Assembly (NCBI GenBank): GCA_030549895.1
Contig: JAUQQM010000001.1
Coordinates: 117,624-181,623 of the forward strand
From: Patescibacteria group bacterium
GTDB lineage: Bacteria; Patescibacteriota; Minisyncoccia; UBA6257; HR35
Length of the DNA stretch: 64,000 nucleotides
Direction: 5' to 3'
The position numbers were made by a program, and so were the translations under genes. The notes under the pieces were generated by a model. It was not told where the DNA came from, did no database searches, and saw nothing but the letters and a program-made list of their open reading frames with translations. Below are positions 7,197 to 60,191 of the stretch, one piece after another. Numbering within the stretch: the stretch's first letter is position 1; the number at the start of each line of letters is the position of its first letter.

Positions 7197-7267
7197 GGCG
7201 GGGTGGTGGAGTAGTACCACGCAGGTCTCATAAGCCTGAGACGCAGGTGCAAATCCTGCCCCCGCAA
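7197..7267 (+). tRNA. tRNA-Met (anticodon CAU), initiator-like, with an atypical D and T loop
   Basis: It aligns by eye to E. coli tRNA-fMet. Its acceptor is GGCGGGG...CCCCGCA-A with a 1:72 mismatch and its anticodon loop is CTCATAA. The D loop AGTAGTA lacks GG and the T loop is TGCAAAT rather than TTCAAAT. Confidence 0.65.
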
Positions 7268-7285
7268 CAAGTCTTTAAAGCTATC

Positions 7286-11222: not shown

Positions 11223-11305
11223 GCCGGGGTGGTGGAATTGGTAGACACGCAACCTTCAGGAGGTTGTACCCTCGTGGTGTGTGGGTTCGAATCCCACCCC
11301 CGGCA
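11223..11305 (+). tRNA. tRNA-Leu (anticodon CAG)
   Basis: The acceptor is GCCGGGG/CCCCGGC, the anticodon loop is TTCAGGA and the T loop is TTCGAAT. It has a long variable arm. Confidence 0.85.
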
Positions 11306-11311
11306 CCTAAC

Positions 11312-35000: not shown

Positions 35001-36361
35001 CATCTCTTATTTTAGATAAAATTTATATACCACCTCTAGTTCAAGATGCATTTCAAGTTTTTTATACAGGATATGCTCTATATACAAGCATTACTAAAGG
35101 AGATTATACTTTAACTATTGATTCGAACTTCTATGAAGTTGCAAGGTATCTTGGTTTGAGTGCGCTGTTGAAAAGAATGACCGAACTTCGAGAAGAGGTA
35201 AAAAGAATAGATTCTCTATTAGATAAGTATAAATTAGCCCCCGAGGGTCATATTATATTATATAATAAGCATCCTATAGCAAAAGGTTTACTATCTACAA
35301 TTCGCAAGGATTTAGTAGAGGATTTTTATAAGGCAGATATAATACGTAAAGAAATTGAGAATGCAAGAATAGGTGAAATTACTAAAATGTTGAGTTCAAA
35401 TGGTGTTTTTGTTGCTGCTGGGGGAGTATTAAGAGCTTGGGCTGCTTATAATGCTTTTAAACAAATGATGTCTCTTGGAAGAACTATGTTAGATAGGGAC
35501 AAGAGGACAATTAGAGAATTTTGGCTTAAAGCTGTTAACCTTTCTTATGGTTATAAAGTAAGAAATTTAAAAATAAACTTAAATGCTAATGAGCCTTCTC
35601 AAAAATTAATGCCAGTTTTTACCCTCTATGGAGTCCCTGTTTATGATCCTTTATATCCCGAATATGGCTTTTATGAACCAGTAAAAAGGTTTTTAGGTGA
35701 GGTAGTAGAAGTAAGTCCTAGCTGTGCTCGTCTTTCTTGCTCTTTATCTACAAGTACTGGAGAACTTATTCTCGATTATAATGTATCTAAATATGAAGAT
35801 ATCTTAGGTGGCAAGATAAAGGAATTTTCAGAAAATAAAGAGTGTAAATGGTTTTGGTATACTGACCAGTCTGTTTCGGCTACAACTACGCGTAATATTT
35901 CTTCAGAATATATTATTTTGCCTCACAGTACTTCATCTTCTATTATTACCGCAAGTTTAATTGGAGAGAAATACTTAGCACGACTTAATCTTTCTAGTAC
36001 AGATGATTTTGTAAATTTTGTAGAATATGAAAGAAAGAATTTAAACGGTGGACGTGATGATTTTGTATATTCGTATATAAAGACGCGAGAAAATACATCA
36101 ACCTTAACAATAAATTCATGGGTCCAATTTCCTCCTCTATCATCTCAACCTCCGCAGAATTATACCTGCGGGAATTATTCTTATAATAATTTATCTTCTT
36201 TAGTAATAGTTACTTCAACTAGAGGTTATAGTTTAGAATGTGACAAAGATAAAACTCCTAAATTTAAAGGAATAGATACTTATAATACTTGTCTAGGGTG
36301 GAGGTGTGAATATGATCCAGATCAACAACCATCCCTTCATGTGACTACTCCTAATAGATAA
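32039..36361 (+). CDS. Giant membrane-embedded protein (1440 aa), unknown function
   Basis: It has an N-terminal hydrophobic signal-like segment and a roughly 880-aa Cys-containing region. A cluster of hydrophobic helices is encoded at about nt 34720-35100. A charged helical segment and a Cys-containing C-terminal domain follow. I see no recognisable enzymatic or adhesin motif. Confidence 0.7.
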   Translation: MGLFEKIISLIINFTLIFEPLAIRIPLTPAQAQQDQNSTNPKLQVEVEILPVSYDVTDNFGAVGNFYCYPLEANVFSPSLYVDNHTATVIEKVKERITQVNKGCETIWPQILLRFIFNTSSATLKRIVTNNTSTINLLVNLNFRGDTTTDLNLTYKFYPKESAIFNSHENIILWWKNGSSSPEVVGDENKSYFDAYVTLRSQYYFRDDPDVDNLVEYIYPTTSLLKEHEEKKKRFILKYVNINFDGYDILITNVRFFKDIVSYYNYKELKEKPTLEFESSIFEKGIIGFFPTFIESLPLNSPDFVENNFCSYYQKKGGNLYLVPFQHLAVWDILVNSVGFCDEPPIFNSGIAKSEDNLCFKYTNKIQKCEIVRGDGATSTSICFVGLPFVNRFYNAFTGDVPYWDLNKKRDYRIIRTINNKLDKDFPSMNSLINKPNTPQDVDNWLNNNKNKIDYFLNERPIFTYSTLQYISSGKFVYTLNVAKNCEYVGDKVIARVDIGEGENRRTVELLPYECYTIGGKAIFAFPPEGYSVSQTESCSLTDNNWGFLYGNCNNNFFILFNTTDEYSSFLSFISKVKNVDVTNTSTPPQGIIFVIETPTDNIKKYEYKLVDFLPRIYTFNTTTYVHQFLSPQIVKHGQLLEYKFSPLWYGNPYFGSFESFTSICTLPQTGFDVSLYVNPPTGEAEIKTTECSYYYDPLQGRQQRCENVAYHLPKKEECYPLSMSVATATIDAKYDLIFFTEKYDGASLNEKIDIFLKANSALTEYRKGENVSKLRFDIFKISPTTSLNIGAISYKRKYIPAPILADFAEEIASNVGVYYERDIGGDIPNYLQSQVQYFKDSVVRELSSYLPMVLDKEEAKFSDVLSSTKNSDISDSLYLNFYPVAAQIGGKEYTIPWLVYFGMFLSSVAAFLNNVVGILNIAALLIPGLGQVILVVRAAVTVFYVASLVVETLAYLSYPDWAKKMYGDFGNFALSALIHLGVSSLNTSLILDKIYIPPLVQDAFQVFYTGYALYTSITKGDYTLTIDSNFYEVARYLGLSALLKRMTELREEVKRIDSLLDKYKLAPEGHIILYNKHPIAKGLLSTIRKDLVEDFYKADIIRKEIENARIGEITKMLSSNGVFVAAGGVLRAWAAYNAFKQMMSLGRTMLDRDKRTIREFWLKAVNLSYGYKVRNLKINLNANEPSQKLMPVFTLYGVPVYDPLYPEYGFYEPVKRFLGEVVEVSPSCARLSCSLSTSTGELILDYNVSKYEDILGGKIKEFSENKECKWFWYTDQSVSATTTRNISSEYIILPHSTSSSIITASLIGEKYLARLNLSSTDDFVNFVEYERKNLNGGRDDFVYSYIKTRENTSTLTINSWVQFPPLSSQPPQNYTCGNYSYNNLSSLVIVTSTRGYSLECDKDKTPKFKGIDTYNTCLGWRCEYDPDQQPSLHVTTPNR

Positions 36362-36373
36362 GATATTGAATTT

Positions 36374-39300
36374 ATGTTAAATATAATTAAAATAAAAATA
36401 ATGATGATTAAAAAATACCTCCTAATTTTCATTATGTTTTTAATTCTAGGCGCATTTAATATCGTATTAAGTCAAAATAATTCTTCTATTTCAACTAACG
36501 AGTCTCTCCCTTCTTCTGATGAAAAAGAAGTTGGAAGAGAAATTGAGCAAAAATTAAGTAATTTTAATATCACTTTACAAGATATATCTTTCTGTCCAAC
36601 TACAACAGAACCAATATTAAATGATAAACTCAATTTTATTGCCACCCTAAAACTCTCCATTAGTTCCAGCTCATTAAGGTTTTTATGTAAGACTTTATAT
36701 CCTGGCGATTCTAATGCATTCTTTTTTCATGAGACATTTTCTTCTCCTATTTCAAGCATAAACAACCCTTATATTAGGTGCAGAATTCCTATAATTGAAC
36801 CATTAACTAAAAATTTATACTATCTAGATGCTCCTATCGGTGAATTGAACTTAATTTTTAATGACTTATGCAGGGAAGATAGAAATTACTCTTCTTCTAC
36901 TAAGGTTGAAATAAAAAATATTCCTTTTCCAGAGATTTTTAAATTTCCTTATCCTGGAAGGGAAGTTGAGATACCACCCCCTGAAGAATTTTATAAAAAA
37001 ATTACTCAAGATATGTCGAATTTAAAGATTGAAGGAAATGAAGGATTTTGTTATTTAGATTTTAATGTAAATTACAATAATGGAGGGAAAACAACTTCTA
37101 GTGTTTTTATATTGGATCGACTTACTTCAATTCCTTCTCAAGAGTATAATGTGGTGTATAAAAAGAAGTTAAATATTCTTCCTAATTTCTCTCTTGTAAG
37201 TGGTAATGCTTTGAAAGTTGATTGGCGCTATTTTTATAATTATGGCTATCTTCAACCGGAAAAACTAAAAAGTTTTAACTGCCAAGTACCTGGACAAACT
37301 ATTCCTCCTCAACAAAGCAGTAATTTTATTTCTTTTTACATATACACTACTACAACTGAAACAATAAGCCAAGATAAATATTTAAGGATTAGAGGTGAAA
37401 TTATAGCTGAGTATCTAGATAAATCTACTTTAACCTATTCTGTCCCTGATACTTTAAGTTCTACTATAGAAATTCCAAAACAAAATGGAAATAGTAAGTT
37501 ACAGGTGATTAGAGTTAATATTTTACCTTCACAAATGGAATACTCTTATGACTTTCAAGGTTGGCAGGGTGATTGTCATATCTGTGGTGGGTCTTCTTCT
37601 TGTAATAATATTTCCATTTCTTATGCATCTTATAAAGATAACTATTCTTGTGGGTTAAAGTTTAATTTTATAGGATTTCAATTTGATTTATCTTCAAATA
37701 TAAGTGTGGGAATCATAAAAGTAAAAAAAGAAGACGATGGTAGTGAGATATGTAATATTACACCGGATAGTAGATTCTGTAACGTTATATTAACTACAAA
37801 ATCACCTGTAAATCTTATTATTGAAAGTTCAGTGAATTTAGGAGATCGTAGCTTATATAACTTAGGAGGGGATTGTAGTTATTCCAGATTTTCTCAAATA
37901 AAAGATAAATACGTAGCGACGATAACAGTTTCTAAGAACTATAGTTGCATTATTAGAGAAATTAACCAACAACAAATAGAGCAACCGTCTAAACAGGACC
38001 TATTTTTAAATAACGAAATTTCATTAGTTAATAAGACTTTTATATTAATTAGAAAAAAGATTTTATACTTTAGGGTCAACTTAGTTAAAATTTTAAATAA
38101 CTTTCTAAAATTCTTTGATGAGATAAAAGATGTTTTAGCTCAAGAAACAAATATTGTTTCCTTTAATGCTGTTTGGGAACAAAGAGAAGATACTACCTCT
38201 CACAAAGTTAAGATAAAACTTTTAGATGCAGAGAATAACGATAAAGAGATTATTTCCACCGAAGCACCAATCAATAGTAGCTCTCTTGTTTTAAATTATG
38301 AATTTTATAAAGATTTAATAACAACTACAAACAATACTATTAAATACTTAGATCACTTCTATGCCTTAGAATTTAGTATAAATGAAAATGAAACTTTTAG
38401 AGTTGAGTTTTATTTAGAAGGCGATAAACTTTTAGACAGAGTAATTAGTCAGTTAAAATGTGGTGATATTATAGAACACCATAAGTATGACCCATTAAAT
38501 TACGGAGATCCTACAAATCAACCTTATTCTTCTTTCCATAAAATATGTTTTAATAACAAAGGCGATGTGGGTAGTGCTTTAGGTGTGAAGTTTGAAAGCT
38601 ATCAAAATTCTTTTTATAATGATTATAAATATTTTATTTCGTTTCAGGAATATATAGGGGACGAAGGAAGTGTTATACCTATTTCAATTCCAGTAAGTAA
38701 GTGGATAACTTCTATAACCGCTACGCCATCTACAAACCTTACATGGGGAGGAAATGGAATTTATAAATTCGGTGCTGGAGAAGATCAAGTTTCGCCTGCA
38801 AGCTCTTCAATTGTTGTTAGTTTTCCCAATTTGTGTTATTTTGATGAAAATGGTTGTAATGGAAGACCAGTTACAGCTACTGCAACTTTGAGTTTTAAGG
38901 GTTATGCCATAAAAGATGGTGCGTGGAAAGAAATTACAAAGGGATATAATAAAGAGGCTGTTTATCAAACTAGAATCACCTATATTCCACCAGCACCATT
39001 AATTAACTTAGGTATATCTACAACTACGCCAACTACTAAAACACTATCAAAAGAAGAGCTTCGTGAGCTTAAAAGTGTTTTGGGTAATTTAGATTTATTA
39101 AATTACTTCATCTATTCATCTCCAGTCAAAGATAATCTTCCTGCTGCTTATTGGAGTTATTATAATAGACCGGATGAAGCAACAACCACAAGAAATCCAT
39201 TTTTTGCTTTAAATGATGAAGATTTATGTCAAATAGAACTTTGGACAGCAACTGGAACAAATAGTTTAGAATTATTTGATGGTTCTCTAGTTGATGAGAT

Positions 39301-40087
39301 GATTAATACAGTTTCTTCAAGTACAATATCAGAAGAGATTAAAAAGAAAATACTTAATGAACTCTTTTCCAGCTCTTTAATTAAAGTTATAGCATTAAAA
39401 TATCTTCTTACTCCTATGAACAGTGGATGGCCTGTAATAACTGATGAGAACCAAAACATTCTAGTGTCAGTAGAGGATTTTCAAAACATTTTTGGCTTTT
39501 CAACTCCAGTGGATAGAGAAAAAAGCTTGACAAAGAACTTCCTAAGGGATATAATTAAAGATAAAGTTAAAAATATGCAAGATTTAAGGAAAATAGAATT
39601 AAGATTTATTTGCTATCAAAATTGGGACGGTAATAACCAAAAGATAAACCTGGCTTCAAATTTAAATGCCGGAAGAGTTGACGGTGTTGATGCAGTTGTT
39701 GAATCTGTAAGCTTCGAACTTATCCCCCTTTCCGCCTCAATTTACAAACAAACTCAAGAATATAGCGTTACCAAACAAACATCCGATCAACAAAAATCTA
39801 AAACAGTGACGTTAAAAATAAGCGTGAACGATGAAGATTTAAGGGATACACCAGTTAATTTAAAGTTTATATCAGGCTCACAGAGCTCTATAAATATAAC
39901 TGTTAAATCCCAAACTAGGGTTTTAGAATCAGGAAAGAGTACACTAATAAATATAGGTACTACAACGAACAGTGGGATATTTATCGAACAAATACCCGTT
40001 ACTTTTGAGTATTCAACTACTTCTGAGATAACTATAGAACTTTCAGTAAAAGATAAAACTAGAAAACTTAAGGTCTTTTTGCAGTAA
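36374..40087 (+). CDS. Giant secreted or surface protein (1237 aa), unknown function
   Basis: It has a signal-peptide-like N-terminus (KKYLLIFIMFLILGAFNIVLSQ), so the real start may be the ATG at 36401. It is rich in Asn/Ser/Thr with scattered Cys pairs and has no recognisable domain. Confidence 0.7.
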   Translation: MLNIIKIKIMMIKKYLLIFIMFLILGAFNIVLSQNNSSISTNESLPSSDEKEVGREIEQKLSNFNITLQDISFCPTTTEPILNDKLNFIATLKLSISSSSLRFLCKTLYPGDSNAFFFHETFSSPISSINNPYIRCRIPIIEPLTKNLYYLDAPIGELNLIFNDLCREDRNYSSSTKVEIKNIPFPEIFKFPYPGREVEIPPPEEFYKKITQDMSNLKIEGNEGFCYLDFNVNYNNGGKTTSSVFILDRLTSIPSQEYNVVYKKKLNILPNFSLVSGNALKVDWRYFYNYGYLQPEKLKSFNCQVPGQTIPPQQSSNFISFYIYTTTTETISQDKYLRIRGEIIAEYLDKSTLTYSVPDTLSSTIEIPKQNGNSKLQVIRVNILPSQMEYSYDFQGWQGDCHICGGSSSCNNISISYASYKDNYSCGLKFNFIGFQFDLSSNISVGIIKVKKEDDGSEICNITPDSRFCNVILTTKSPVNLIIESSVNLGDRSLYNLGGDCSYSRFSQIKDKYVATITVSKNYSCIIREINQQQIEQPSKQDLFLNNEISLVNKTFILIRKKILYFRVNLVKILNNFLKFFDEIKDVLAQETNIVSFNAVWEQREDTTSHKVKIKLLDAENNDKEIISTEAPINSSSLVLNYEFYKDLITTTNNTIKYLDHFYALEFSINENETFRVEFYLEGDKLLDRVISQLKCGDIIEHHKYDPLNYGDPTNQPYSSFHKICFNNKGDVGSALGVKFESYQNSFYNDYKYFISFQEYIGDEGSVIPISIPVSKWITSITATPSTNLTWGGNGIYKFGAGEDQVSPASSSIVVSFPNLCYFDENGCNGRPVTATATLSFKGYAIKDGAWKEITKGYNKEAVYQTRITYIPPAPLINLGISTTTPTTKTLSKEELRELKSVLGNLDLLNYFIYSSPVKDNLPAAYWSYYNRPDEATTTRNPFFALNDEDLCQIELWTATGTNSLELFDGSLVDEMINTVSSSTISEEIKKKILNELFSSSLIKVIALKYLLTPMNSGWPVITDENQNILVSVEDFQNIFGFSTPVDREKSLTKNFLRDIIKDKVKNMQDLRKIELRFICYQNWDGNNQKINLASNLNAGRVDGVDAVVESVSFELIPLSASIYKQTQEYSVTKQTSDQQKSKTVTLKISVNDEDLRDTPVNLKFISGSQSSINITVKSQTRVLESGKSTLINIGTTTNSGIFIEQIPVTFEYSTTSEITIELSVKDKTRKLKVFLQ

Positions 40088-40107
40088 ATAAAAATTAAAA
40101 ATTATTT

Positions 40108-40117
40108 AAGGAGGTGA
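40108..40117 (+). promoter_or_regulatory. Canonical Shine-Dalgarno AAGGAGGTGA, 6 nt upstream of the ATG at 40124
   Basis: This is the only perfect GGAGG I found directly upstream of a start codon in this window. Confidence 0.7.
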
Positions 40118-40123
40118 TTAACT

Positions 40124-41407
40124 ATGTTTTTATTTATTTTTTTCCTTTTTCAAATTCAGATTTTGTATCAAACTATAAAAGGCGACATAGTAGATGTTGT
40201 AAAAAGTAGCGGCCCGTATATGTTAGAATATGTATTAGAAATTGAAAACGAAAAACTTAAAGTGATTAATGAGAATAAAACATTCGAAATCGATAGTGTA
40301 TATGATGTTATAGGAAGCGCACTTAATGGTGATATATTATACATAGTTTATTCAAAAATAATAGAAAAAACACCTCCGATATACACACTAAAAAGCGCGG
40401 AAATTGTAATTTATAAGGATAAGGATAGTGTTAGTAATATATTAAGTGATAATTTTTTAATTCGGGAATTCTTTGGTTTAGATATAGTAGAAAGGATGTA
40501 TATTCTTTCTACAAATTTAGGGGCAAAATTAGAAATAAAAGACACAAACGATAACGTGGTATTTGAGAGAGTAATTAAAGACGGGGATGAAGAATCTGCA
40601 TTATATAGCGCTATAAGAGCTAAAAAGATAAGTAGGGATATGTATGCTGTAGTTAGTACATATTTAGATCTGACAGACGGTTTCGAGCGTTTATTTTTTA
40701 TTATTTATGAAAAAAAGAATGGCTTGTTAAAAATGGTGAGAGACAGTCTTACATATGGTTATTTTTGTGATGGAATTGTAAATTTAGATGATATGGGTAA
40801 TGAATATTTTATTGTTTTAAAATACATAGGCGGCAACCAATTAATTTGTAGTTATTATGATTCTTATTATTCTCTGAAAGATTATATGATGTTGAATGGA
40901 ATAGATGGGGGTTTTATTTATGTAAATGACAATTTATTTGGATTAATTGTAATGGATAGAGAGGCAGGCGAAAAATTGATAATTTTTAGGATTTATAATA
41001 ATAAATTGGAGAAAGTGATGGATATAAATTTTTCTCTTTCTGGATATATTAGAGCACAAAAATGTTTTAGTGTGAAAAATGGCATAGTAGTATTTGATGA
41101 TAAAATGGTTATTTTGATTCCTGTTGACTTTACTTCTGTTCAAAAACAAGAAGAAAACATGAAAAAGTCGTCGCCTTTTATGTCTTATGTTACTACGAAA
41201 TATGTTTATGTTGAGGACGTTGGAGAAGAAGAAATAGAAAGGATAGAAGTATTTAATTTATTAGGTCAGAGGGTAAAGTCAAAATATGAGTATAATAAAA
41301 GACAAATCATTATTGATGTATCTGAACTTCCTTCAGGTATTTACTTTTTCATTATAAAAGGAAGAAAAAGTGATTTAATTAGAGGGAAGATAATTAAAGT
41401 AAAATAA
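40124..41407 (+). CDS. Secreted protein with a T9SS-type (Por secretion tail / FlgD-Ig-like) C-terminal sorting domain
   Basis: It has an N-terminal signal-like segment. Its C-terminal ~65 aa, IERIEVFNLLGQRVKSKYEYNKRQIIIDVSELPSGIYFFIIKGRKSDLIRGKIIKVK, fits the v.vyn.lGq.v....ld.s.L.sGiYf..i....kkii consensus of type A sorting domains. Confidence 0.6.
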   Translation: MFLFIFFLFQIQILYQTIKGDIVDVVKSSGPYMLEYVLEIENEKLKVINENKTFEIDSVYDVIGSALNGDILYIVYSKIIEKTPPIYTLKSAEIVIYKDKDSVSNILSDNFLIREFFGLDIVERMYILSTNLGAKLEIKDTNDNVVFERVIKDGDEESALYSAIRAKKISRDMYAVVSTYLDLTDGFERLFFIIYEKKNGLLKMVRDSLTYGYFCDGIVNLDDMGNEYFIVLKYIGGNQLICSYYDSYYSLKDYMMLNGIDGGFIYVNDNLFGLIVMDREAGEKLIIFRIYNNKLEKVMDINFSLSGYIRAQKCFSVKNGIVVFDDKMVILIPVDFTSVQKQEENMKKSSPFMSYVTTKYVYVEDVGEEEIERIEVFNLLGQRVKSKYEYNKRQIIIDVSELPSGIYFFIIKGRKSDLIRGKIIKVK

Positions 41408-41437
41408 CCCCTAACCTTCCCCCTAGGTCCTCTTTGT

Positions 41438-41463
41438 GGCGGCCATTTTTGGCCGCCTTTTTT
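41438..41463 (+). terminator. Rho-independent terminator
   Basis: GGCGGCC-ATTTTT-GGCCGCC is a perfect 7-bp GC stem followed by TTTTTT. It lies 30 nt after the stop at 41407. Confidence 0.8.
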
Positions 41464-41656
41464 AATTTAAAAGAGTAAGACACTATAAAATTAACCTGCA
41501 ACAGTCAACAAAATCCCACCATTCGTCCAGTCTAAATCTTCCCGAAAGTCTATTAACAAATGTCAAAAGTTATATTATTTTCAATTCAGAAATAAAATTT
41601 TAAAATAAAAATATGCTATCCCAATTTATAACAAATGGTATTTGCTCAGGTGCTCT

Positions 41657-41986
41657 TTACGCTTTGGGTTTCGTTGGTTTTATTTTAACACCAGTCCCGA
41701 AGTGATCGTCCGTAACGATAATATTTTTCAACGCACGCGCTTTGACTCTCATTTCTTTCGGTAATTCTTTCAAATCTTTCCCGATCGTACGGATAATTTC
41801 TGAATTACCTGTGCTTCTCTTGAACATTTTTTGAGCGAGTTCTTCATGTTCCGGAAATGCATTACAAAACAAATTCAATAATTCTGAAACATAATATTCG
41901 CATCCACTATCAGCCTTGAGTATTATTTCAATTACCTTTTCTGCGTCTTCTTTGCTCTTAGCTTCCTTTCTTTTTTTATACACCAT
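41657..41986 (-). CDS. Hypothetical protein (109 aa) in the compositionally atypical island
   Basis: The ORF has a purine-rich AAGGGGGCAAGG stretch upstream of its ATG. CpG density is much higher than in the backbone. I see no recognisable motif. Confidence 0.45.
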   Translation of the reverse strand: MVYKKRKEAKSKEDAEKVIEIILKADSGCEYYVSELLNLFCNAFPEHEELAQKMFKRSTGNSEIIRTIGKDLKELPKEMRVKARALKNIIVTDDHFGTGVKIKPTKPKA

Positions 41987-42236
41987 CGTCCTTGCCCCCT
42001 TATTAATTTCTTAACTCTGGTTCATTTTGGAAAATTGAAATGCGGTTATCAAAGCGAAATAACTTTCTAAGTAATTCTTGAAATTTTTGTAAACCATTCA
42101 TATCCATCAGAGTGACCAGCCTTTTAGACAGTCATAATATATTATCAAGGGGTGGTGGACATTTGTGAATGTCCGTACAAAGTGTTTTAGGCTCATCAGG
42201 GTTTCATTTTTGTTTTTGAAACTTTTTTAGTTAGTT

Positions 42237-42500
42237 TTAGAGGGACAACTTAAAATATGAGTACCAGATATTTCCCTTGTCAACTTTTTTGGTTTTTATT
42301 AGGTTATTTATATTATTTTCATTTAACTTTTTTACATTTAACTCTTTTAGCTTTTTGAATAGTGCCTTTCTCGCCTCGGCCTTACCTTCTTTTTGCTTAT
42401 CTTTAACTTCAAGTATATAACATAAAAGTTTATCCTTTTTTAGAGAAATAGTGAGTCCATCAAAACCAGCAAATTCTTTTTTTCTTTGTTTTAACTTCAA
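42237..42500 (-). CDS. Hypothetical protein; the annotated TTG start is doubtful and the frame stays open upstream to 42718
   Basis: The track ORF starts at a TTG. The same frame is open for 73 more codons upstream with no ATG, GTG or TTG, so this may be a truncated or decayed gene. Confidence 0.3.
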   Translation of the reverse strand: MKLKQRKKEFAGFDGLTISLKKDKLLCYILEVKDKQKEGKAEARKALFKKLKELNVKKLNENNINNLIKTKKVDKGNIWYSYFKLSL

Positions 42501-42753
42501 CTCCGTTAAGGATATGACAATATATGAATCTTCGTTTAATTTTTTAATAAAATGAAGCTTTGCTTCTAACTTCGAGTTTTTGAACTTCTTTAGTTTATTT
42601 ATTATTTTCTTAGCATCCTTAACTTTGCCAAAGAAAGCATGTGGTCCGTCACCTTTCCATTTATATGGGAACGTTATTACTTTTGATGCTTTACGATAAT
42701 GATTGGCAATTCTATTACTACTTTAAAAAGATATTATCTCTTATAGAGAGAGA

Positions 42754-43761
42754 ATGGAATATCTTTATTCATATGCAAGAAAAGCTCAAGAGGTGTATGA
42801 AAAGTATAAGAATGAGCCCCAAAAAATTAAAGACGAACAAGAAAAGAGGATGTTTTCTCAATATCTGTTATATACCAGTTATGAGAGTGAATTGATTTTG
42901 GTTGAGATTTTTAGGGAAAAAGTTAAAAAAGCAGCTAGTATTGCAGAAATAATTAGAAATTTAGAAAAGAAATCTAAAAAAGATGATGAAAAAATTAATA
43001 GGTTAAGAGTTCGTTTTGGAATAGCTAAAGCTGAGGTAGAGAAAATGATAAATGATTTAGGGCCATTATTAGAACTTGCTTTCAGAAGAGAATTAGAAAA
43101 AGAAGATGAATATAAACATAAATTTAATATGTTGAGTAAAAAAGAAGCAAAACTGAAAGTTTTAATGGAGATGCCAATTGGAGACGTTTTAACCGCTCAT
43201 GAAGTTTTTCAAGAAAAGATGGCTGAAGATTCCGAAGGTCGAGAAAAAATTTCAGTTAGTAGGCAATTAAAAAGAATTGCTCAAGGTAGAGATTGGTTAA
43301 GAGTTGAAGACGATTTGCAAGAAATATTAAATAATGAAAATGTTTTAGCAGTATTAAAAGAACTTAGTCAAGAGACTGGAGAAGATCTTATTTCTTTTGC
43401 TGAAAGTTTAGTAAAAAAAGAAGAAAAAGATGAGGGAGAGTATAGATCAAAAAAAGAAATTGAGGAAGAATTAAAAAAAATTGAAGATGGGATTGAAGAA
43501 GGAATGAAAAATGAAACTCCTTGGAAAGAAATACTTCAGCGGGTGATTCGTAATATATTATATGGTCAAGAAGGACCAGGGGATATTGACGATGTTTGTA
43601 CTGGATCGGCCTGGCGCGCTTTTTCGGAGTACTGTTCTCTCTCTTTCTATCTTTCCGAACTCGAAAAAATCGCAAATCAAAAAATGAAAGAACTTGAACA
43701 TAAAAAAGCCCTTCATCCAGAAAAGAAAATTCCTCCTCGTCCAGAAGCAAGAAGTTTTTAA
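42754..43761 (+). CDS. Hypothetical charged coiled-coil protein (335 aa)
   Basis: This long ORF is Glu/Lys-rich and helical. I see no recognisable motif. Confidence 0.5.
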   Translation: MEYLYSYARKAQEVYEKYKNEPQKIKDEQEKRMFSQYLLYTSYESELILVEIFREKVKKAASIAEIIRNLEKKSKKDDEKINRLRVRFGIAKAEVEKMINDLGPLLELAFRRELEKEDEYKHKFNMLSKKEAKLKVLMEMPIGDVLTAHEVFQEKMAEDSEGREKISVSRQLKRIAQGRDWLRVEDDLQEILNNENVLAVLKELSQETGEDLISFAESLVKKEEKDEGEYRSKKEIEEELKKIEDGIEEGMKNETPWKEILQRVIRNILYGQEGPGDIDDVCTGSAWRAFSEYCSLSFYLSELEKIANQKMKELEHKKALHPEKKIPPRPEARSF

Positions 43762-44301
43762 AATTAAATAAAAAATAATATGCTAGAACTTAATCTTGAG
43801 GAATTAAGAAAAAAATATAAAAAGATTAAAAGTTATTGCTTAATAACTTTGCTTGATTAAATTTTGAGGGAGCTATAGGAAAATAATTATAGTTAATTTT
43901 GAAAGCGCCGAAAGTTATAAAATTTTTATTTATGAGATAATTAAAAGCTAATAAGTTTGAGAACTTTTTTAATTTGCAATTAGAAGCTAGAAAAATTAAA
44001 GTTACTTGAGGAAATTTTAAATTTTAGTTATAAATTATGGCTGAAGATTCTGAATCTTTTTATCAGTAAGAAAATTTTGCAAACTTTTCAAGAGAAATAA
44101 ATTTTATTTCACTAGAAAGAGGGCTTTTAAAACTGCTAAATTAGATGAAATTTTTTTAAGATGACTAAAACTAAGGTAAATTATCTTTTAAATTTCATTT
44201 TTAATTAGGGGAATAAAGAGGATATAGCAAAAAATTCAAGAACATTTCTGATAGTTAGAAAGAGACTTGATTTTTATTAATTTTTAGTTTATAATTCAAA
44301 G

Positions 44302-45738
44302 ATGTTTCCTGAAAATTACAAAAATTTTTCAAAAGAAGAAGAAAGTATAATTAGAGAAAAAATTCTGGAATTTATAGGAGAGAATGAAGAAAATTTAGTT
44401 GATTACTTTTTATATTTTTCTAAGGATTTAAGAAAGGGGTTTTATGGTTTACCCATTTATGATCTTAAATTTTTACGGGATTTTTTTATAAATAAACACA
44501 GAAGCTCTAAATCAAAAAAATTTTTTAAACACTTAAATGACCTTAAAAATATTCTTGATGATTCGCAAACAAGAGAATTTTACAATTTTATTCAAAAAGA
44601 ATTTCCGAAAAATGGGCTAGGAATTTTATTAGAGGTTATAAATGAAGAAATTGAAAATAACGATGAGCAAAAGTATATAGATAGTTTAAGAAAGATTGAA
44701 AGATCAGTGCAAGGTTTAATAAAAAGAGGCAAAAACTATGATCTTTATAGCATAATTGAAGATTATAGTCTTTTTGGAAGGAAAATTCTTTGGACATTGT
44801 TTATGAAGTATAAAGAAATTTATGAGGATAAAATACTAAAAGGAAGAGGATATTTACCTGATGAAGTAGTAGAGAGATTAGATGATTATTTTAAGTCTAT
44901 AAAAAAATTAAAAAATTACAAAGAAGAAGTAAAGAAATTGATTGGAAACGATATGATTGATCCGACAAAAATTTTTGCTTCAAATGTTTCTTTTTTTGGA
45001 ATTTTTCTTAGTTTCTTTGGGAGAATAAATGAAAGTAATTATTCTTGTTTAAGTGATAAAGATTATATAAAAGGCTATCTTACACAACATATTAAAGAAA
45101 AAGAGATTAATAAAAATACTTTTATCAGTGAATTAGCTGAATGCTTAAAGACAGTTCTTTTTAATAAGTATCTTGAAAAATTTTTGACTGTAAGAACTTC
45201 TTTTTATGATGATTTTTTTCATGGAGTTGATAATATAATTGTTGACCTAGAAGGAGGGGATAAAGTTTTGGGAATAGATGTGACAATTAATTTAGAAAAG
45301 AAAATAAAAAAACTTGCAGAAAAAAACAAAAGGATACAAGTGCTTAGACAAGAAGGAATTCAAAAGAAAAAAGAAGATATAAATGAAATTCTTTCCCGCC
45401 CTGATTGGAGACTTTTAAGGTTTGATTTTAATTTAAATTTTGACTCTAATTTGAAGAAATATAAATGTGTAGTTATTAATGAAGTTAAAATTAACAATTC
45501 CTTCCCTGTAGTTATTATTCCAATTTCTCTTGAAGATATTTTAGAAATTTTAGAAGAGCTTAAAAGCAGAAAGTTTGATTATAAAAAATACTCAGATGTT
45601 GAAAAAAGTATTACGAAGAAAATTATTAATTCTGTTGTTTTGCAGCTTGAAATAAAATTAAAAAATGAAAATTTACCCAATAGTCAAAAACTAAAGAGTA
45701 TAATTGAAAAATTTGAAAATTCTTTGAAGTCTCTCTAA
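44302..45738 (+). CDS. Hypothetical protein (478 aa)
   Basis: A long ORF sits 6 nt downstream of a TATAAT box (44290-44295). I see no recognisable motif. Confidence 0.55.
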   Translation: MFPENYKNFSKEEESIIREKILEFIGENEENLVDYFLYFSKDLRKGFYGLPIYDLKFLRDFFINKHRSSKSKKFFKHLNDLKNILDDSQTREFYNFIQKEFPKNGLGILLEVINEEIENNDEQKYIDSLRKIERSVQGLIKRGKNYDLYSIIEDYSLFGRKILWTLFMKYKEIYEDKILKGRGYLPDEVVERLDDYFKSIKKLKNYKEEVKKLIGNDMIDPTKIFASNVSFFGIFLSFFGRINESNYSCLSDKDYIKGYLTQHIKEKEINKNTFISELAECLKTVLFNKYLEKFLTVRTSFYDDFFHGVDNIIVDLEGGDKVLGIDVTINLEKKIKKLAEKNKRIQVLRQEGIQKKKEDINEILSRPDWRLLRFDFNLNFDSNLKKYKCVVINEVKINNSFPVVIIPISLEDILEILEELKSRKFDYKKYSDVEKSITKKIINSVVLQLEIKLKNENLPNSQKLKSIIEKFENSLKSL

Positions 45739-45758
45739 CTTGTTGTATAATTTTAAGT

Positions 45759-46313
45759 ATGGTTGAAGGTTTAATAAAGGAGTTTGAAGCTAAATTAAAT
45801 GATTTAAAAAAAGAACTACAGGAAAAAATTTCTAAAGTTAATATTTCAAGAGGTGGATTTTCAATGATAGAGAATTACTTAATAAAAATAGGAGAAAAAA
45901 CTTATCCACTCAAACAGTTAGCCAATATAGTTATTTTAGATAGCTATTCGATAAAAATTGAACCCTACCTTCAAGATTATGTTCCTTTTATTGAGAATGC
46001 ACTTTCGAAAAGTAATTTAAATTTTACTTTAACTAAAGAAAAAGACCATCTTCATCTTAAATTTTCACCTCTAACAGAGGAAACACGCAAGAAATTTTTA
46101 AAGATTCTTTCTGAGGAGAAAGAAAGAATTAAGATAGAATCAAGAAAAGTAAGGGATAATTTTTTAAAAAAGCTTAAAAATGCAAAAGAGGAGAAAAAAA
46201 TAAGTGATGACCAGTTTTTTAGAGGTAAAGAAAAACTTGATAAACTTATTGATGATTTTAATAAAGAAGTTGATAAAGTTTACCTTCAAAAAGAAAAAGA
46301 GATTTTATTATAA
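45759..46313 (+). CDS. frr: Ribosome recycling factor
   Basis: At 184 aa it shows the RRF pattern: NISRGGFSMIENYLI, PLTEETRKKFLK and ISDDQFFRGKEKLDKLIDDFNKEVD. Confidence 0.85.
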   Translation: MVEGLIKEFEAKLNDLKKELQEKISKVNISRGGFSMIENYLIKIGEKTYPLKQLANIVILDSYSIKIEPYLQDYVPFIENALSKSNLNFTLTKEKDHLHLKFSPLTEETRKKFLKILSEEKERIKIESRKVRDNFLKKLKNAKEEKKISDDQFFRGKEKLDKLIDDFNKEVDKVYLQKEKEILL

Positions 46314-55775: not shown

Positions 55776-55788
55776 TGTTATAATTATA
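55776..55788. promoter_or_regulatory. Bidirectional promoter core: overlapping -10 boxes around the palindrome TATAATTATA
   Basis: The plus strand has TGTTATAAT (55776-55784) 8 nt before the ATG at 55793. The minus strand has TATAAT (55788-55783) 7 nt before the ATG at 55775. The two start codons are 17 bp apart. Confidence 0.6.
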
Positions 55789-55792
55789 ATTT

Positions 55793-59096: not shown

Positions 59097-60191
59097 ATGA
59101 AAAAGATAATTCCAATTTTGGTTTTTCTTGTAATTTGCCAACAGGCTCTAGCAGTTTCTAAAATTTTACCTAATAATCCATTTTATTTTTTTAAAAAAAT
59201 CTATTTTAGTTTAAAAGAAAACTTTACCAAAGATGTAGACAAAAAATTCGATTTTTATTTTGAAAACCTAAAAAACTCATACCAAGATTTTTATTTTTTA
59301 CTTTCTAAAGCACCGCAGGACTCAAGCAAAGCTTTAAAAGAGTTAAATGAAAGCCTTTTAAAAATTAAAAATTTTGTCTATTTTAACCAGATAGAAAAAA
59401 ATAAGATAAGCAAACTTAAAGATTTTATTTTTGAGCAAGAAAAACAAAATATAAAAGCTAAGGGCTCGATTTCGGCTTTAGAAAGAGAACTTTTTATTTT
59501 TCTTGCTTCAAAGGATAGTTTTGAAAATAATTTTGAACTTTTAAAGAAAATTCTTAGTAATGGTCTTAATGAAGAAAATATTAATTTAGTTTTTCAACTT
59601 AAGGAGATATTAAAAAATCAAAGAAATATTAAAGAGTGGGAAGTTGAATATCTTAGTTTTCTAAAAGACGAAAATACAGATTTTTTATTTAATAATTTGA
59701 ATCATGTAAAAATTAGCTTTATTTTTGATTATTGGAAAAAATATTTTTTAGAAAAGAAGATAAATCTTACAAAGATACAAAAAGAATCTGAAGTTTTGCT
59801 TGCTAAAGAAGATCAAATAAATAGGGAACTTTTAGAAGAAACTCTTTATTGGTTTTATGATAAATTAAAAGATAATAAAAAACAGAAAGAAAATTTTAGA
59901 AAAAAGATTGAATCAAGATCAGAAGAAAATTTTGTTCCAGAAACTTTTGAGATAATAATTTCTCTTATTCAAGAGATAACCTCACCAAAATATAGTTGCG
60001 AGTTTATTTGGGAGCCAGTCTGTGGAGTTGATGGAAAAACTTATTCTAATTTTTGCTTTTTAAATCTTGCTAAAGTGAAGTTAGCTTATCTTGGTAGTTG
60101 CATAACTTTAAATGATCTTGAAAAAGAGATTAACTCAATAAAAGATCCAGAAGAATTTAAAGAAGATTTTCCTGAAATTGAAGAATTCTAA
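59097..60191 (+). CDS. Secreted protein with a C-terminal Kazal-type domain
   Basis: It has a signal peptide (MKKIIPILVFLVICQQALA) and a C-terminal CEFIWEPVCGVDGKTYSNFCFLNLAKVKLAYLGSC, which fits the Kazal pattern (PVCG.DG.TY.N.C). Confidence 0.65.
   Translation: MKKIIPILVFLVICQQALAVSKILPNNPFYFFKKIYFSLKENFTKDVDKKFDFYFENLKNSYQDFYFLLSKAPQDSSKALKELNESLLKIKNFVYFNQIEKNKISKLKDFIFEQEKQNIKAKGSISALERELFIFLASKDSFENNFELLKKILSNGLNEENINLVFQLKEILKNQRNIKEWEVEYLSFLKDENTDFLFNNLNHVKISFIFDYWKKYFLEKKINLTKIQKESEVLLAKEDQINRELLEETLYWFYDKLKDNKKQKENFRKKIESRSEENFVPETFEIIISLIQEITSPKYSCEFIWEPVCGVDGKTYSNFCFLNLAKVKLAYLGSCITLNDLEKEINSIKDPEEFKEDFPEIEEF

What the first reader, a model, noticed from the sequence alone, without database searches (positions are those of the whole stretch)
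40088..41463. A T9SS-type C-terminal sorting tail, a perfect Shine-Dalgarno and a GC-stem terminator sit on one gene in a genome that otherwise uses neither signal
The 427-aa protein ends in a segment that fits the type A Por/T9SS sorting-domain consensus (IEVFNLLGQRV...IDVSELPSGIYFFII...GKIIKVK). T9SS is characteristic of the Bacteroidota/FCB lineage, and no T9SS component is visible in this window. The gene is preceded by AAGGAGGTGA-N6-ATG and followed by a GGCGGCC/GGCCGCC terminator. Neighbouring genes lack both Shine-Dalgarno sequences and terminators. Its codon choice looks different by eye, with more GTA/GTG, TTG and CG-containing codons. It could be a horizontally acquired cargo gene now fused to the end of the giant-protein operon. 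Alternatively, the tail may be reused here as a beta-sandwich cell-surface anchor.
Basis: partly seen in the sequence, partly recalled or inferred. Interest (0 to 1): 0.65.

Follow-up and report, generated by a model that had tools for sequence, protein, structure and literature searches.

The report
Foreign T9SS-tail gene island in CPR genome
The gene with the Bacteroidota-style secretion tail is real and lies in a 3.1-kb piece of DNA recently acquired by a CPR (Patescibacteria-like) bacterium from a Kryptobacter-like hot-spring bacterium, and its ribosome-binding site and terminator came with it.

Summary
ORF 40124-41407 (427 aa) ends in a type A T9SS sorting domain that scores above both curated cut-offs. 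It has the only well-placed strong Shine-Dalgarno in the window, and it is followed by the only GC-stem plus T-run terminator found in 64 kb.

The foreign unit is larger than reported: 39551-42666. It starts inside the 1237-aa ORF, whose last 178 aa are a foreign module I call "A". It continues through the T9SS-tail gene ("T"), the terminator and a conserved non-coding stretch ("B"). It then carries a 5' stub of a livH-type permease gene, a 109-aa gene and a truncated gene.

The only homologues of A and T lie in A+T cassettes of Candidatus Kryptobacter tengchongensis (FCB) contigs and in two short contigs of doubtful binning. Window 41432-42666 is about 99% identical, apart from one 45-nt indel, to one of those short contigs. 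All four island genes have atypical codon usage. Every T gene carries the same Shine-Dalgarno, even where the backbone genes of its contig do not, so the signal belongs to the cassette.

An independent MAG contig crosses the right junction at 99.76% identity, so a chimera is unlikely there. The left junction is not independently covered. It coincides with the window's only perfect TTGACA-N17-TATAAT promoter.

Verdict: a real, recent inter-phylum transfer. Its function in the new host is unproven.

The parts
39527..39555 (+). Perfect sigma-70 consensus promoter (TTGACA-N17-TATAAT) lying on the left junction of the island. The -10 hexamer (39550-39555) spans the point where similarity to the foreign cassettes begins. 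ATG 39575 (MQDL...) lies 19 nt downstream.
   Evidence: scores it 12/12, the best in 31-50 kb. One search finds it as the only match in the 64 kb on both strands (expected 0.05; 4 of 100 shuffles have at least one). Searches show that the cassette relatives read ATAGTAATT where the window reads ATAATT.
39551..40087 (+). Module A, read here as the last 178 aa of ORF 36374..40087. It has a conserved N-terminal part of about 78 aa, followed by a variable all-beta domain of about 100 aa. Relatives elsewhere are stand-alone ORFs of 175-201 aa.
   Evidence: DNA identity to L002, L006, L007, L008 and L009 is 83-91% from 39552 over 163-303 nt. Protein identity to the relatives is 51-61%. In the AlphaFold2 model, residues 79-178 have block-mean pLDDT 86-94 and are all-beta, while residues 1-78 are below 50. 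Foldseek against the PDB gives only generic beta-sandwich hits, none at E<=0.001. Codon LLR is -0.045 and GC3 is 0.25.
40108..40117 (+). Shine-Dalgarno AAGGAGGTGA, 6 nt before ATG 40124.
   Evidence: The same 7-8-nt TAAGGAGG/AAGGAGG core precedes all five T genes examined (window, L002 twice, L007, L008). Nearly all backbone genes of L002 and L007 lack one.
40124..41407 (+). T gene of 427 aa. It has a hydrophobic N-terminus (a possible signal peptide), an orphan beta-rich region of about 340 aa, and a type A T9SS C-terminal sorting domain (residues 361-425, nt 41204-41398).
   Evidence: Domain hits are. Only two family members were found in the big databases, the window protein itself and P0002. 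Further alleles on L002, L007, L008 and L009 are 29-32% identical over the C-terminal 108-152 aa. The Logan contig L001 equals window 39738-41476 at 100%. The AlphaFold2 model is poor (pLDDT 40). Codon LLR is -0.027.
41432..41549 (+). B core: an intrinsic-terminator hairpin (41438-41457) with its T-run, followed by strongly conserved non-coding DNA.
   Evidence: About 2 differences in about 100 nt against L002, 91% identity to L007 over 143 nt, and about 99% to L008. This compares with 37% amino-acid identity in the adjacent T gene. It holds the only such hairpin in the window. No credible Rfam match was found, and only the hairpin is a stable fold.
41614..41691 (+). 5' stub of about 26 codons of a branched-chain amino-acid permease (livH-type) gene with its upstream region. 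This is donor chromosome context and is non-functional here.
   Evidence: It aligns with L002 10352... The 71-aa ORF on L002 hits PF02653 positions 2-37 at E 8.7e-4, below the curated cut-off. The same B-livH linkage is seen in L002, L008 and L009, and in L007 with a 5.6-kb insert between the two.
41657..41986 (-). 109-aa gene of unknown function with its own Shine-Dalgarno-like TAAGGGGG. It belongs to the island.
   Evidence: It is 99% identical in protein to the L008 gene. Its cluster members lie on L008 and L024. Codon LLR is -0.149 and GC3 is 0.35, the most atypical gene in the window. No Pfam, PHROG or PADLOC hit was found.
42237..42666 (-). 3' fragment of a gene that is 328 aa on L008 and 535 aa on L024. 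It is cut off at the right junction (42666|42667).
   Evidence: Similarity to L008 and L024 stops at exactly this base. L017, from an independent assembly, follows the window across the junction.
36374..39550 (+). Host-side part of the 1237-aa ORF (giant protein 2). It has an N-terminal hydrophobic segment, and its reading frame runs without a stop into module A.
   Evidence: It has no homologue other than itself and no Pfam domain. Its codon usage lies between core and island.

Best explanation
**What it is.** Window 39551-42666 is a contiguous 3.1-kb fragment of the chromosome of a T9SS-bearing, Kryptobacter-like (Kryptonia, FCB) bacterium. It has integrated, very recently, into the strain-variable surface-protein region of a CPR/Patescibacteria-like genome.

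**What it carries.**
- One A+T cassette of a hypervariable two-gene family: A is a conserved head plus a variable beta domain, and T is a beta-rich protein ending in a type A T9SS sorting domain.
- The cassette's own strong Shine-Dalgarno and its intrinsic terminator.
- Donor flanking DNA: conserved non-coding DNA, a livH stub, a 109-aa gene and a truncated gene.

The three 'foreign' signals are therefore inherited properties of the cassette. They are not adaptations of the host.

**Function in the native host (inferred).** T would be exported by Sec and then by the T9SS, and displayed on the outer membrane.

**Function in the CPR host (inferred).** CPR bacteria are thought to have no outer membrane, and no T9SS gene is seen in the window, so the tail cannot act as a T9SS signal. 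The gene is most likely young passenger DNA. If it is expressed, transcription probably starts at the perfect promoter on the left junction and stops at the imported terminator. That would give A, either alone from ATG 39575 or as the new C-terminus of the giant protein, plus a Sec-exported T protein.

**Route of acquisition (inferred).** Uptake of environmental or host DNA followed by illegitimate recombination. No integrase, transposase or target-site duplication was found.
For: **Shown**
- The sorting domain scores above both curated cut-offs.
- The only homologues of T and A lie on Kryptobacter tengchongensis contigs and on three short contigs.
- DNA-level homology includes non-coding flanks and the livH stub.
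- L002, L007 and L009 share one chromosomal locus, array-B-(opp operon)-livH. This gives the cassette a native context in Kryptobacter.
- Window 41432-42666 matches L008 with only 11 mismatches plus one 45-nt indel in 1235 aligned columns.
- All four island genes have negative codon log-likelihood ratios, while all but one core gene are positive. Island GC3 is 0.22-0.35, against 0.11-0.20 in all but one core gene.
- The junctions are sharp and cut genes.
- L017, from another assembly, spans the right junction at 99.76%. L001, the same run assembled independently by Logan, reproduces 39738-41476.
- The host looks like CPR. The best EF-G/S7/S12 relatives that carry a taxon label are Patescibacteria (Nealsonbacteria, Komeilibacteria; 59-64% EF-G identity). 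There are almost no Shine-Dalgarno sequences, and TATAAT often sits just before the ATG.
- The Shine-Dalgarno is conserved before every T gene.
- The junction promoter is unique in the window.
Against: - The left junction (39550|39551) is not covered by any independent contig. L001 starts at 39738, inside the repeated part of A.
- A and B are repeats shared with other cassettes that probably occur in the same samples. An assembler could therefore have threaded the wrong T allele between them.
- The cassette region of L002 has 26-30% GC against 35-41% for most of that contig, and it is flanked by transposase fragments. The cassette is thus compositionally odd in Kryptobacter too.
- No mobility gene or target duplication explains the integration.
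- The host's phylum rests on moderate marker-protein identities and gene-organisation traits, not on a phylogeny.
- Only 64 kb of a 209-kb contig was seen, so absence of a T9SS from the whole genome is not shown.
- Expression and any function in the host are untested.
Confidence: 0.72

Rival explanations
1. Assembly artefact. The contig is chimeric, or the T allele was threaded in from a co-occurring Kryptobacter-like genome through the repeated A-head and B-core sequences. In that case this particular gene is not in the CPR genome.
For: - CPR relatives and Kryptobacter cassettes were recovered from the same samples: SRR27730013, ERZ27245615 and Ga0105160.
- The Logan contig L001 breaks at 39738 and 41476, inside the two repeats. 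This suggests branches in the assembly graph there.
- The left junction has no independent support.
Against: - L017, from a different NCBI assembly and differing from the window by 6 mismatches and 1 gap, crosses the right junction at the same base.
- Both flanks of the island are the same CPR-type genome. A chimera would need two exact re-entry joins.
- The A head is only 83-91% identical between cassettes, which is a poor bridge for long k-mers.
- A cassette of some kind must lie between the A head and the B core even if the allele were wrong.
Confidence: 0.08
2. Reverse or third-party origin. The A+T module is an itinerant mobile cassette whose home is not Kryptonia, for example a low-GC organism or an element that uses Shine-Dalgarno sequences. 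Both Kryptobacter and the CPR genome would then be recipients.
For: - The L002 cassette region has GC 0.26-0.30, against 0.35-0.41 for most of that contig, and is flanked by DDE_3 and HTH_Tnp_4 transposase fragments.
- The strong Shine-Dalgarno is atypical for the backbone genes of L002 and L007 as well.
- L008 and L024 sit in bins labelled Aenigmatarchaeota.
- The A head and B core behave as conserved ends around variable content.
Against: - A T9SS sorting domain has a known role only in bacteria that have a T9SS (established knowledge of the FCB lineage).
- Kryptobacter contigs hold tandem arrays and several alleles at one conserved chromosomal locus, next to livH.
- The window copy carries that Kryptobacter-type flank, including the livH stub.
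- Bin labels on contigs of 3-6 kb are demonstrably unreliable here. CPR fragments identical or nearly identical to this window are labelled WOR-3 and Bathyarchaeia.
- No viral contig matched.
Confidence: 0.12
3. Functional co-option, which is compatible with real transfer. The CPR cell expresses the island. The giant protein gains a new Ig-like C-terminal domain, and T is Sec-exported and retained at the surface, with the former sorting domain serving only as a beta-sandwich module. A possible use is adhesion to, or mimicry of, the surface of a Kryptonia-like host.
For: - A, T and the 109-aa gene are all intact.
- The fusion to the giant ORF is in frame.
- The window's only perfect sigma-70 promoter lies exactly on the junction and points into A and T.
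- The island sits in the surface-protein region that differs most between strains.
Against: - The flank is about 99% identical to L008 and codon usage is not ameliorated. The island may simply be too young to have decayed.
- It carries obvious junk, namely the livH stub and a truncated gene.
- It was seen only in this strain and in one strain 99.8% identical to it.
- There are no expression data.
- The model of the T domain is uninformative.
Confidence: 0.15

Closest known systems
Type A T9SS cargo proteins of Bacteroidota/FCB (C-terminal sorting domain TIGR04183 / PF18962)
   Same: The domain lies at the extreme C-terminus and scores above both curated cut-offs. The N-terminus is hydrophobic. 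The family profile matches solved sorting-domain chains 8glj_D and 8glk_D. Relatives in Kryptobacter are annotated by NCBI as T9SS type A sorting domain proteins.
   Different: The gene is encoded in a CPR-like genome with no T9SS component in view. The 340-aa passenger region is an orphan with no Pfam, PHROG or PDB match. The gene always follows an A gene and carries a strong Shine-Dalgarno even on contigs whose other genes have none.
Recently acquired genomic islets in CPR/Patescibacteria (lateral transfer into reduced episymbiont genomes; from general knowledge, not tested here)
   Same: Codon usage is atypical, the nearest homologues are in another phylum, the junctions are sharp, the genes at the edges are truncated, and the islet lies in a strain-variable region.
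   Different: The islet has no integrase, transposase, tRNA-end repeat or target duplication. It is about 99% identical to a donor-type contig over about 1.2 kb, so the event is unusually fresh. It is fused in frame to a host giant-protein gene.
Polymorphic C-terminal cassette arrays (CDI/Rhs 'orphan' modules)
   Same: A conserved 5' head is followed by a variable C-terminal domain and a co-varying downstream gene, repeated in tandem (L002). The stand-alone A ORFs have no Shine-Dalgarno. In the window, A forms the C-terminus of a very large secreted protein.
   Different: No toxin or immunity domain is detectable. The variable part of A is a generic beta-sandwich. The partner T is itself a secreted T9SS cargo, not a small cytoplasmic immunity protein. 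This is an architectural analogy only.
Hybrid or junction promoters that activate newly inserted DNA (as described for IS-element junctions; from general knowledge)
   Same: A consensus -35/-10 pair is assembled across a recombination junction and points into the acquired genes.
   Different: No IS element is present at the window junction. Activity is not demonstrated.

Membership tests
T9SS type A C-terminal sorting domain proteins (TIGR04183 / PF18962) | Profile score above the curated cut-off | tested here: met
   PF18962 scores 35.3 bits (cut-off 27) and TIGR04183 scores 32.5 bits (cut-off 23). The scores are higher for the last 80 aa alone.
T9SS type A C-terminal sorting domain proteins (TIGR04183 / PF18962) | Domain located at the extreme C-terminus of the protein | tested here: met
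   The match covers residues 361-425 of 427.
T9SS type A C-terminal sorting domain proteins (TIGR04183 / PF18962) | N-terminal Sec signal peptide | tested here: inconclusive
   The N-terminus MFLFIFFLFQIQILYQ is hydrophobic, conserved in all five T proteins and modelled as a helix. It has no basic n-region, and no signal-peptide predictor was available.
T9SS type A C-terminal sorting domain proteins (TIGR04183 / PF18962) | T9SS machinery (SprA, PorV, PorU, PorK-N and others) encoded in the same genome | tested here: not met
   No such domain was found in the 40 window ORFs scanned. Only 64 kb of the genome is visible, so absence from the whole genome cannot be tested here.
T9SS type A C-terminal sorting domain proteins (TIGR04183 / PF18962) | Beta-sandwich fold related to solved sorting domains | tested here: inconclusive
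   The family profile hits 8glk_D and 8glj_D at E 1.4e-4 and 5.4e-4. The AlphaFold2 tail is all-beta, but pLDDT is only 56-69.
Horizontally transferred genomic islet | Composition or codon usage atypical for the host | tested here: met
   All four island genes have codon LLR of -0.03 to -0.15, against a core mean of +0.048 (sd 0.028). GC3 is 0.22-0.35, against 0.11-0.20 in all but one core gene. Overall GC is not different (0.30).
Horizontally transferred genomic islet | Nearest relatives in a distant lineage, including non-coding DNA | tested here: met
   Kryptobacter tengchongensis contigs L002-L007 and L009, plus L008 and L024.
Horizontally transferred genomic islet | Junctions reproduced in independent assemblies | tested here: inconclusive
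   The right junction is reproduced by L017. The left junction is not covered by any other contig.
Horizontally transferred genomic islet | Mobility genes, attachment repeats or target-site duplication | tested here: not met
   No integrase or transposase domain was found in the island. No direct or inverted repeats flank 39551 and 42666.
Polymorphic toxin / orphan cassette arrays (CDI, Rhs) | Conserved head, variable C-terminal domain and variable partner gene, repeated in tandem | tested here: met
   L002 has two such units. The A heads of the two L002 units are nearly identical over the first ~280 nt and are 83-91% identical to the window's, while T proteins of different allele types are 25-42% identical.
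Polymorphic toxin / orphan cassette arrays (CDI, Rhs) | Recognisable toxin domain with a cognate small immunity protein | tested here: not met
   The variable part of A is a generic beta-sandwich with no PDB hit at E<=0.001. T is a secreted protein of 390-440 aa.
CPR / Patescibacteria (host of the window) | Marker proteins closest to Patescibacteria | tested here: inconclusive
   The top EF-G/S7/S12 relatives among GTDB species that carry a taxon label are Patescibacteria group, Nealsonbacteria and Komeilibacteria (59-64% EF-G). The next, non-CPR hits are at 55-58%. No tree was built and no rRNA lies in the window.

The most novel reading that the evidence does not exclude
The islet records physical intimacy between an uncultivated hot-spring CPR bacterium and a Kryptonia (FCB) host. 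The epibiont took up a fragment of its host's hypervariable surface-protein locus. It wired the fragment to a perfect promoter created at the junction. It now displays a host-type surface module, the A domain on its own giant protein plus the T protein, for attachment or mimicry. On this reading the T9SS tail is a fossil that identifies the host lineage.
Probability: 0.15. Interest if true: 0.7.

Novelty: new member of a known kind. Interest (0 to 1): 0.45.

Why it matters
- **Annotation.** A sorting signal, a ribosome-binding site and a terminator that look out of place can all be explained by one fresh inter-phylum transfer. Automatic annotation of a 'T9SS sorting domain protein' in a CPR genome should not be read as evidence for a T9SS there.
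- **Host identity.** Hosts of almost all CPR lineages are unknown. A nearly unameliorated fragment of a Kryptobacter-like chromosome, in a CPR genome recovered from the same springs, gives a concrete and testable host candidate.
- **A new gene family.** The work exposes a small, previously undescribed two-gene A+T cassette family. It has conserved ends, highly divergent contents and a cassette-specific Shine-Dalgarno on contigs whose other genes have none.
- **Binning.** Several short contigs nearly identical to this genome or to the islet are deposited under unrelated phylum labels.

Tried and rejected
- **Homologue searches.** A search with the 1237-aa protein returned only itself. A full HMMER scan of 1.84 billion representatives with the first 360 aa of T returned only itself and P0002.
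- **Wider collections.** GTDB species genomes hold no relative of A. JGI metagenomes yielded one short Kryptobacter-type contig. Three viral-collection scans were empty.
- **Family libraries.** PHROGs and PADLOC gave nothing for the island genes. The only hit was a weak IetA-like match for an AAA fragment on L008 and L024, outside the window.
- **Structure.** AlphaFold2 on T with a two-sequence alignment failed (pLDDT 40). The A model gave only generic beta-sandwich matches.
- **RNA.** Rfam found nothing credible in 39.4-42.8 kb. Folding of B shows only the terminator hairpin.
- **Repeats.** No flanking direct or inverted repeats were found.
- **Simple insertion rejected.** The island did not simply split the giant gene. 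The frame that resumes at 42667 hits a stop after 10 codons (reading).
- **Composition.** Tetranucleotide distance did not separate the island from the host's giant genes, which are themselves the most atypical part of the window. Synonymous codon usage was used instead.
- **Synteny marker.** The tRNA between S7 and EF-G is not shared with the closest EF-G relatives.
- **Empty site.** Attempts to find an 'empty site' or a contig spanning the left junction in related strains failed. All their contigs break at about 43.7-43.85 kb or within giant protein 1.
Full report
**1. The observation**

ORF 40124..41407 (+) encodes 427 aa. Its last ~65 residues match Pfam PF18962 Por_Secre_tail (35.3 bits, gathering score 27) and NCBIfam TIGR04183 (32.5 bits, cut-off 23). 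The last 80 aa alone score 39.2 and 37.8 bits.

AAGGAGGTGA lies at 40108-40117, 6 nt before the ATG. GGCGGCC-ATTTTT-GGCCGCC followed by TTTTTT lies at 41438-41463.

Both signals are exceptional for this window.
- Of 46 genes, six have a Shine-Dalgarno (SD) core match of 5 nt or more, and only this one has 8 nt.
- Many genes instead have TATAAT a few bases before the ATG.
- A scan of both strands of the 64 kb for perfect GC-containing hairpins followed by a T-run finds only this site.
- In 31-50 kb, terminator-like sites are no more frequent than in shuffled sequence (8 against 6.5), and this site is the top one.

GTA+GTG, TTG and CGN codons are enriched, and GC3 is 0.22 against 0.11-0.20 in all but one core gene.

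**2. The real extent of the anomaly**

BLASTN of the contigs that carry the only homologue shows homology at the DNA level that starts upstream of the gene and continues downstream of it. Similarity to Candidatus Kryptobacter tengchongensis contig L002 (CZVH01000039) begins at window 39551/39552. That point is inside the 1237-aa ORF 36374..40087. The last 178 aa of this ORF are homologous to stand-alone ORFs of 175-201 aa, which I call module A, and which precede every relative of the 427-aa gene, which I call T.

Downstream of T, the terminator and about 60 further non-coding bases (B core) differ from L002 at about 2 positions in about 100. They are followed by the promoter region and first ~26 codons of a livH-type permease gene. 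The corresponding L002 ORF gives PF02653 at E 8.7e-4, below the curated cut-off.

From 41432 to 42666 the window matches contig L008 (GCA_038998945.1) with 11 mismatches and one 45-nt indel in 1235 aligned columns. From 41678 to 42666 it is 97% identical to L024. This stretch holds a 109-aa gene on the minus strand (99% protein identity to the L008 gene) and the 3' part of a gene that is complete on L008 and L024 but cut off in the window at 42666|42667.

The foreign unit is therefore 39551-42666 (3.1 kb): A, T, terminator/B, livH stub, 109-aa gene, truncated gene.

**3. Who else has it**

- T has two members among 5.8 billion protein clusters, the window protein itself and P0002 of Kryptobacter tengchongensis (37% identity over 97% of the query).
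- An exhaustive HMMER pass over 1.84 billion representatives with the N-terminal 360 aa adds nothing.
- A has four relatives.
- GTDB species genomes hold none, and JGI metagenomes hold one fragment.

On the recovered contigs, A and T are always adjacent. On L002 they form a tandem array of two units.

Conservation is very uneven across the cassette.
- Window T is 36% identical to its closest allele (L002 T1). The other four alleles align only over the C-terminal 108-152 aa, at 29-32%.
- T proteins of different allele types are 25-42% identical to one another.
- The A heads are 83-91% identical to the window's at the nucleotide level.
- The B core is conserved as described above.

L007 ends with 141 nt that are 100% identical to the livH start of L002. 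L002, L007 and L009 therefore represent one Kryptobacter chromosomal locus, array-B-(opp operon present or absent)-livH. The window's islet carries that native flank, which argues that DNA flowed from a Kryptobacter-like chromosome into the window's genome.

L008 shares the window's livH|109-aa junction. The immediate donor was therefore L008-like.

L008 and L024 are deposited under Aenigmatarchaeota. Bin labels on short contigs are unreliable in these data sets. Fragments 99.8% identical to this window, or holding proteins at least 90% identical to its proteins, are labelled WOR-3 and Bathyarchaeia.

**4. The host**

The rest of the window is an ordinary small-genome bacterial chromosome. It encodes ClpB, NusG, L11, S12, S7, EF-G, GatB, DnaJ, RNase J and Y, an intein-containing class II ribonucleotide reductase, RRF, ProRS-like, MreBC, PBP2, Pol X, a P-type ATPase and pilin-like genes.

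Among one genome per GTDB species, the best EF-G/S7/S12 matches that carry a taxon label are a 'Patescibacteria group bacterium', Nealsonbacteria and Komeilibacteria (59-64% EF-G identity). No FCB genome is near the top. I therefore treat the host as CPR/Patescibacteria-like. This is well supported but not proven by a phylogeny. No T9SS component was seen in the 40 ORFs scanned.

**5. Real or chimeric?**

Evidence that the islet is real:
- Both flanks share the host's no-SD, TATAAT-ATG style and its codon usage.
- All four island genes have negative CPR-versus-cassette codon log-likelihood ratios (-0.03 to -0.15). All but one core gene are positive, with a mean of +0.048 and sd 0.028 for 150-codon windows.
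- Contig L017 (JBDRZR010000155, 3710 nt, from another NCBI assembly) equals window 42448-46154 at 99.76%. It follows the window across 42666|42667, exactly where L008 and L024 diverge. A chimeric join would not recur at the same base in a second, non-identical assembly.
- The Logan assembly of SRR21619497 reproduces 39738-41476 at 100%.

Remaining weaknesses:
- The left junction is not independently covered.
- The Logan contig breaks inside the A head and the B core. These repeats branch the assembly graph, so mis-threading of the T allele cannot be excluded.

I put an artefact at about 8%.

**6. The neighbourhood is strain-variable**

Contigs from strains 95-97% identical to the window in flanking genes exist in at least ten samples, three of which also yielded Kryptobacter cassettes. 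On the left they track the window at 95% up to 32397. That is about 120 codons into giant protein 1. Identity then drops to 66-67%. On the right, high identity resumes only at about 43853. The islet therefore lies in the hypervariable surface-protein region of this lineage. Giant protein 2 (36374-39550) has no relative anywhere, and its codon usage is intermediate.

**7. Two details that change the interpretation**

First, the strong SD is not a donor-genome habit. On L002 and L007 nearly all backbone genes lack an SD, yet all five T genes carry TAAGGAGG or AAGGAGG 4-7 nt before the ATG. The SD belongs to the cassette.

Second, the only perfect TTGACA-N17-TATAAT in the 64 kb lies at 39527-39555, on the left junction, and points into A and T.
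- The expected number per window is 0.05.
- The -10 hexamer spans the point where homology starts.
- The cassette relatives read ATAGTAATT where the window reads ATAATT.
- ATG 39575, the Met of the MQDL motif that every stand-alone A ORF contains at or near its start, lies 19 nt downstream.

This fits the host's promoter style. It suggests, but does not show, that the islet is transcribed from the junction and terminated at the imported hairpin.

**8. What the proteins are**

T has a hydrophobic N-terminus conserved in all alleles. It has a beta-rich orphan region of about 340 aa with no Pfam, PHROG, PADLOC or PDB sequence match, followed by the sorting domain. The family profile hits the solved sorting-domain chains 8glk_D and 8glj_D. 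The AlphaFold2 model is unusable (pLDDT 40, two-sequence alignment).

A has a conserved ~78-aa head that is modelled with low confidence. It is followed by a confidently modelled all-beta domain (block-mean pLDDT 86-94), which resembles generic Ig-like adhesin or pilin domains only weakly.

The conserved head, variable tail, co-varying partner and tandem layout recall orphan cassette arrays of polymorphic toxin loci. No toxin or immunity features are present, so this is an architectural analogy only.

**9. Most likely mechanism**

Shown: a 3.1-kb Kryptobacter-type chromosomal fragment is present in a CPR-like genome. It carries an intact A+T cassette with its own SD and terminator.

Inferred:
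- In the donor, T is a Sec- and T9SS-exported surface protein from a locus under diversifying selection.
- In the recipient the tail cannot function as a T9SS signal, because CPR bacteria are thought to have no outer membrane and no T9SS is seen.
- The DNA is very young, being about 99% identical to L008, not ameliorated, and still carrying gene stubs.
- It entered by DNA uptake and illegitimate recombination, since no mobility genes or target duplication were found.
- It may be expressed from the junction promoter.

Whether the giant-protein-A fusion or the T protein does anything for the CPR cell is unknown.

**10. Novelty and score**

Inter-phylum transfer into a CPR genome, and T9SS sorting domains as such, are both known kinds of thing. 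New here are this particular cassette family, the very fresh FCB-to-CPR transfer, the cassette-specific SD and the promoter on the junction.

The most interesting reading not excluded is that the islet marks a CPR-Kryptonia episymbiosis, with a host surface module co-opted by the epibiont. I give that about 15%.

Overall interest is 0.45.

Noticed in passing
window 39527-39555: The only perfect TTGACA-N17-TATAAT in the 64 kb on either strand (expected 0.05 per window) lies exactly on the left junction of the foreign islet. It points into the islet, 19 nt upstream of ATG 39575.
   Followed up: partly
L002 6820-6842 and 8897-8919; L007 666-688; L008 877-899; window 40102-40123: Every T gene is preceded by TAAGGAGG or AAGGAGG. 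Nearly all backbone genes on the same Kryptobacter-type contigs have no Shine-Dalgarno. The reason for a cassette-specific strong Shine-Dalgarno is unexplained.
   Followed up: partly
window 41432-41549 and the matching parts of L002, L007, L008 and L009: Non-coding DNA after the terminator shows about 2 differences in about 100 nt between contigs whose adjacent T proteins are only 25-42% identical and whose livH starts align much less well. It has no Rfam match and no stable fold beyond the hairpin. It may be a recombination flank or a regulatory site.
   Followed up: partly
window 32397-43853: This region is hypervariable between strains of this lineage. Related contigs are 95-97% identical outside it. 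Inside it, giant protein 1 keeps its first ~120 codons and then falls to 66-67% identity, and the 335-aa gene falls to 79% or less. Many assemblies break at about 43.7-43.85 kb.
   Followed up: partly
L017 (GCA_039804045.1), L008 (GCA_038998945.1), L024 (GCA_039000455.1), and P0086/P0087: Short contigs carry conflicting phylum labels. L017 is 99.8% identical to this window and is labelled WOR-3. Ribonucleotide reductase fragments in the same 90%-identity protein cluster as the window's gene (P0086, P0087) come from one 3-kb contig, and P0087 is labelled Bathyarchaeia. L008 and L024 carry DNA 97-99% identical to the islet and are labelled Aenigmatarchaeota. Mis-binning is likely.
   Followed up: partly
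window 23710-28755: A 1681-aa class II (B12-dependent) ribonucleotide reductase gene is interrupted by intein splicing domains and LAGLIDADG homing-endonuclease domains, with two matched stretches of each.
   Followed up: no
window 1864-3400: NusG and L11 are followed directly by thymidylate kinase and GatB. The usual L1, L10, L7/L12 and rpoB genes are missing from this position, so L1 is not next to L11 here.
   Followed up: no
window 7197-7268 and 11223-11307: tRNA-Met lies between rpsG and fusA, and tRNA-Leu lies just before the RNase J gene. The longest-ORF starts (GTG 7247, TTG 11264) run into these tRNAs, so the true starts must be further downstream.
   Followed up: no
whole window, e.g. 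44290-44304, 45746-45761, 55780-55795: Many genes have TATAAT 5-8 nt before the ATG and no Shine-Dalgarno. This suggests mostly leaderless or very short-leader mRNAs in this organism.
   Followed up: partly
L002 6000-10000: The A+T array is also a low-GC patch in Kryptobacter (0.26-0.30, against 0.35-0.41 for most of that contig). It is bracketed by DDE_3 and HTH_Tnp_4 transposase fragments. One A copy is cut at almost the same base as the window's left junction.
   Followed up: partly
L008 4749-5030; L024 967-1248: A 93-aa AAA-ATPase fragment near the 109-aa gene module gives a weak PADLOC IetA match (E 5.6e-7). The module that disrupted livH in the donor may be a defence islet.
   Followed up: no
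window 59097-60191: A 364-aa protein has a Kazal-type serine-protease-inhibitor domain (PF00050/PF07648), which is unusual in bacteria.
   Followed up: no
window 42178-42222: A 45-nt stretch present in the window is absent from L008. It is the only indel in about 1.2 kb of otherwise ~99% identical sequence.
   Followed up: no
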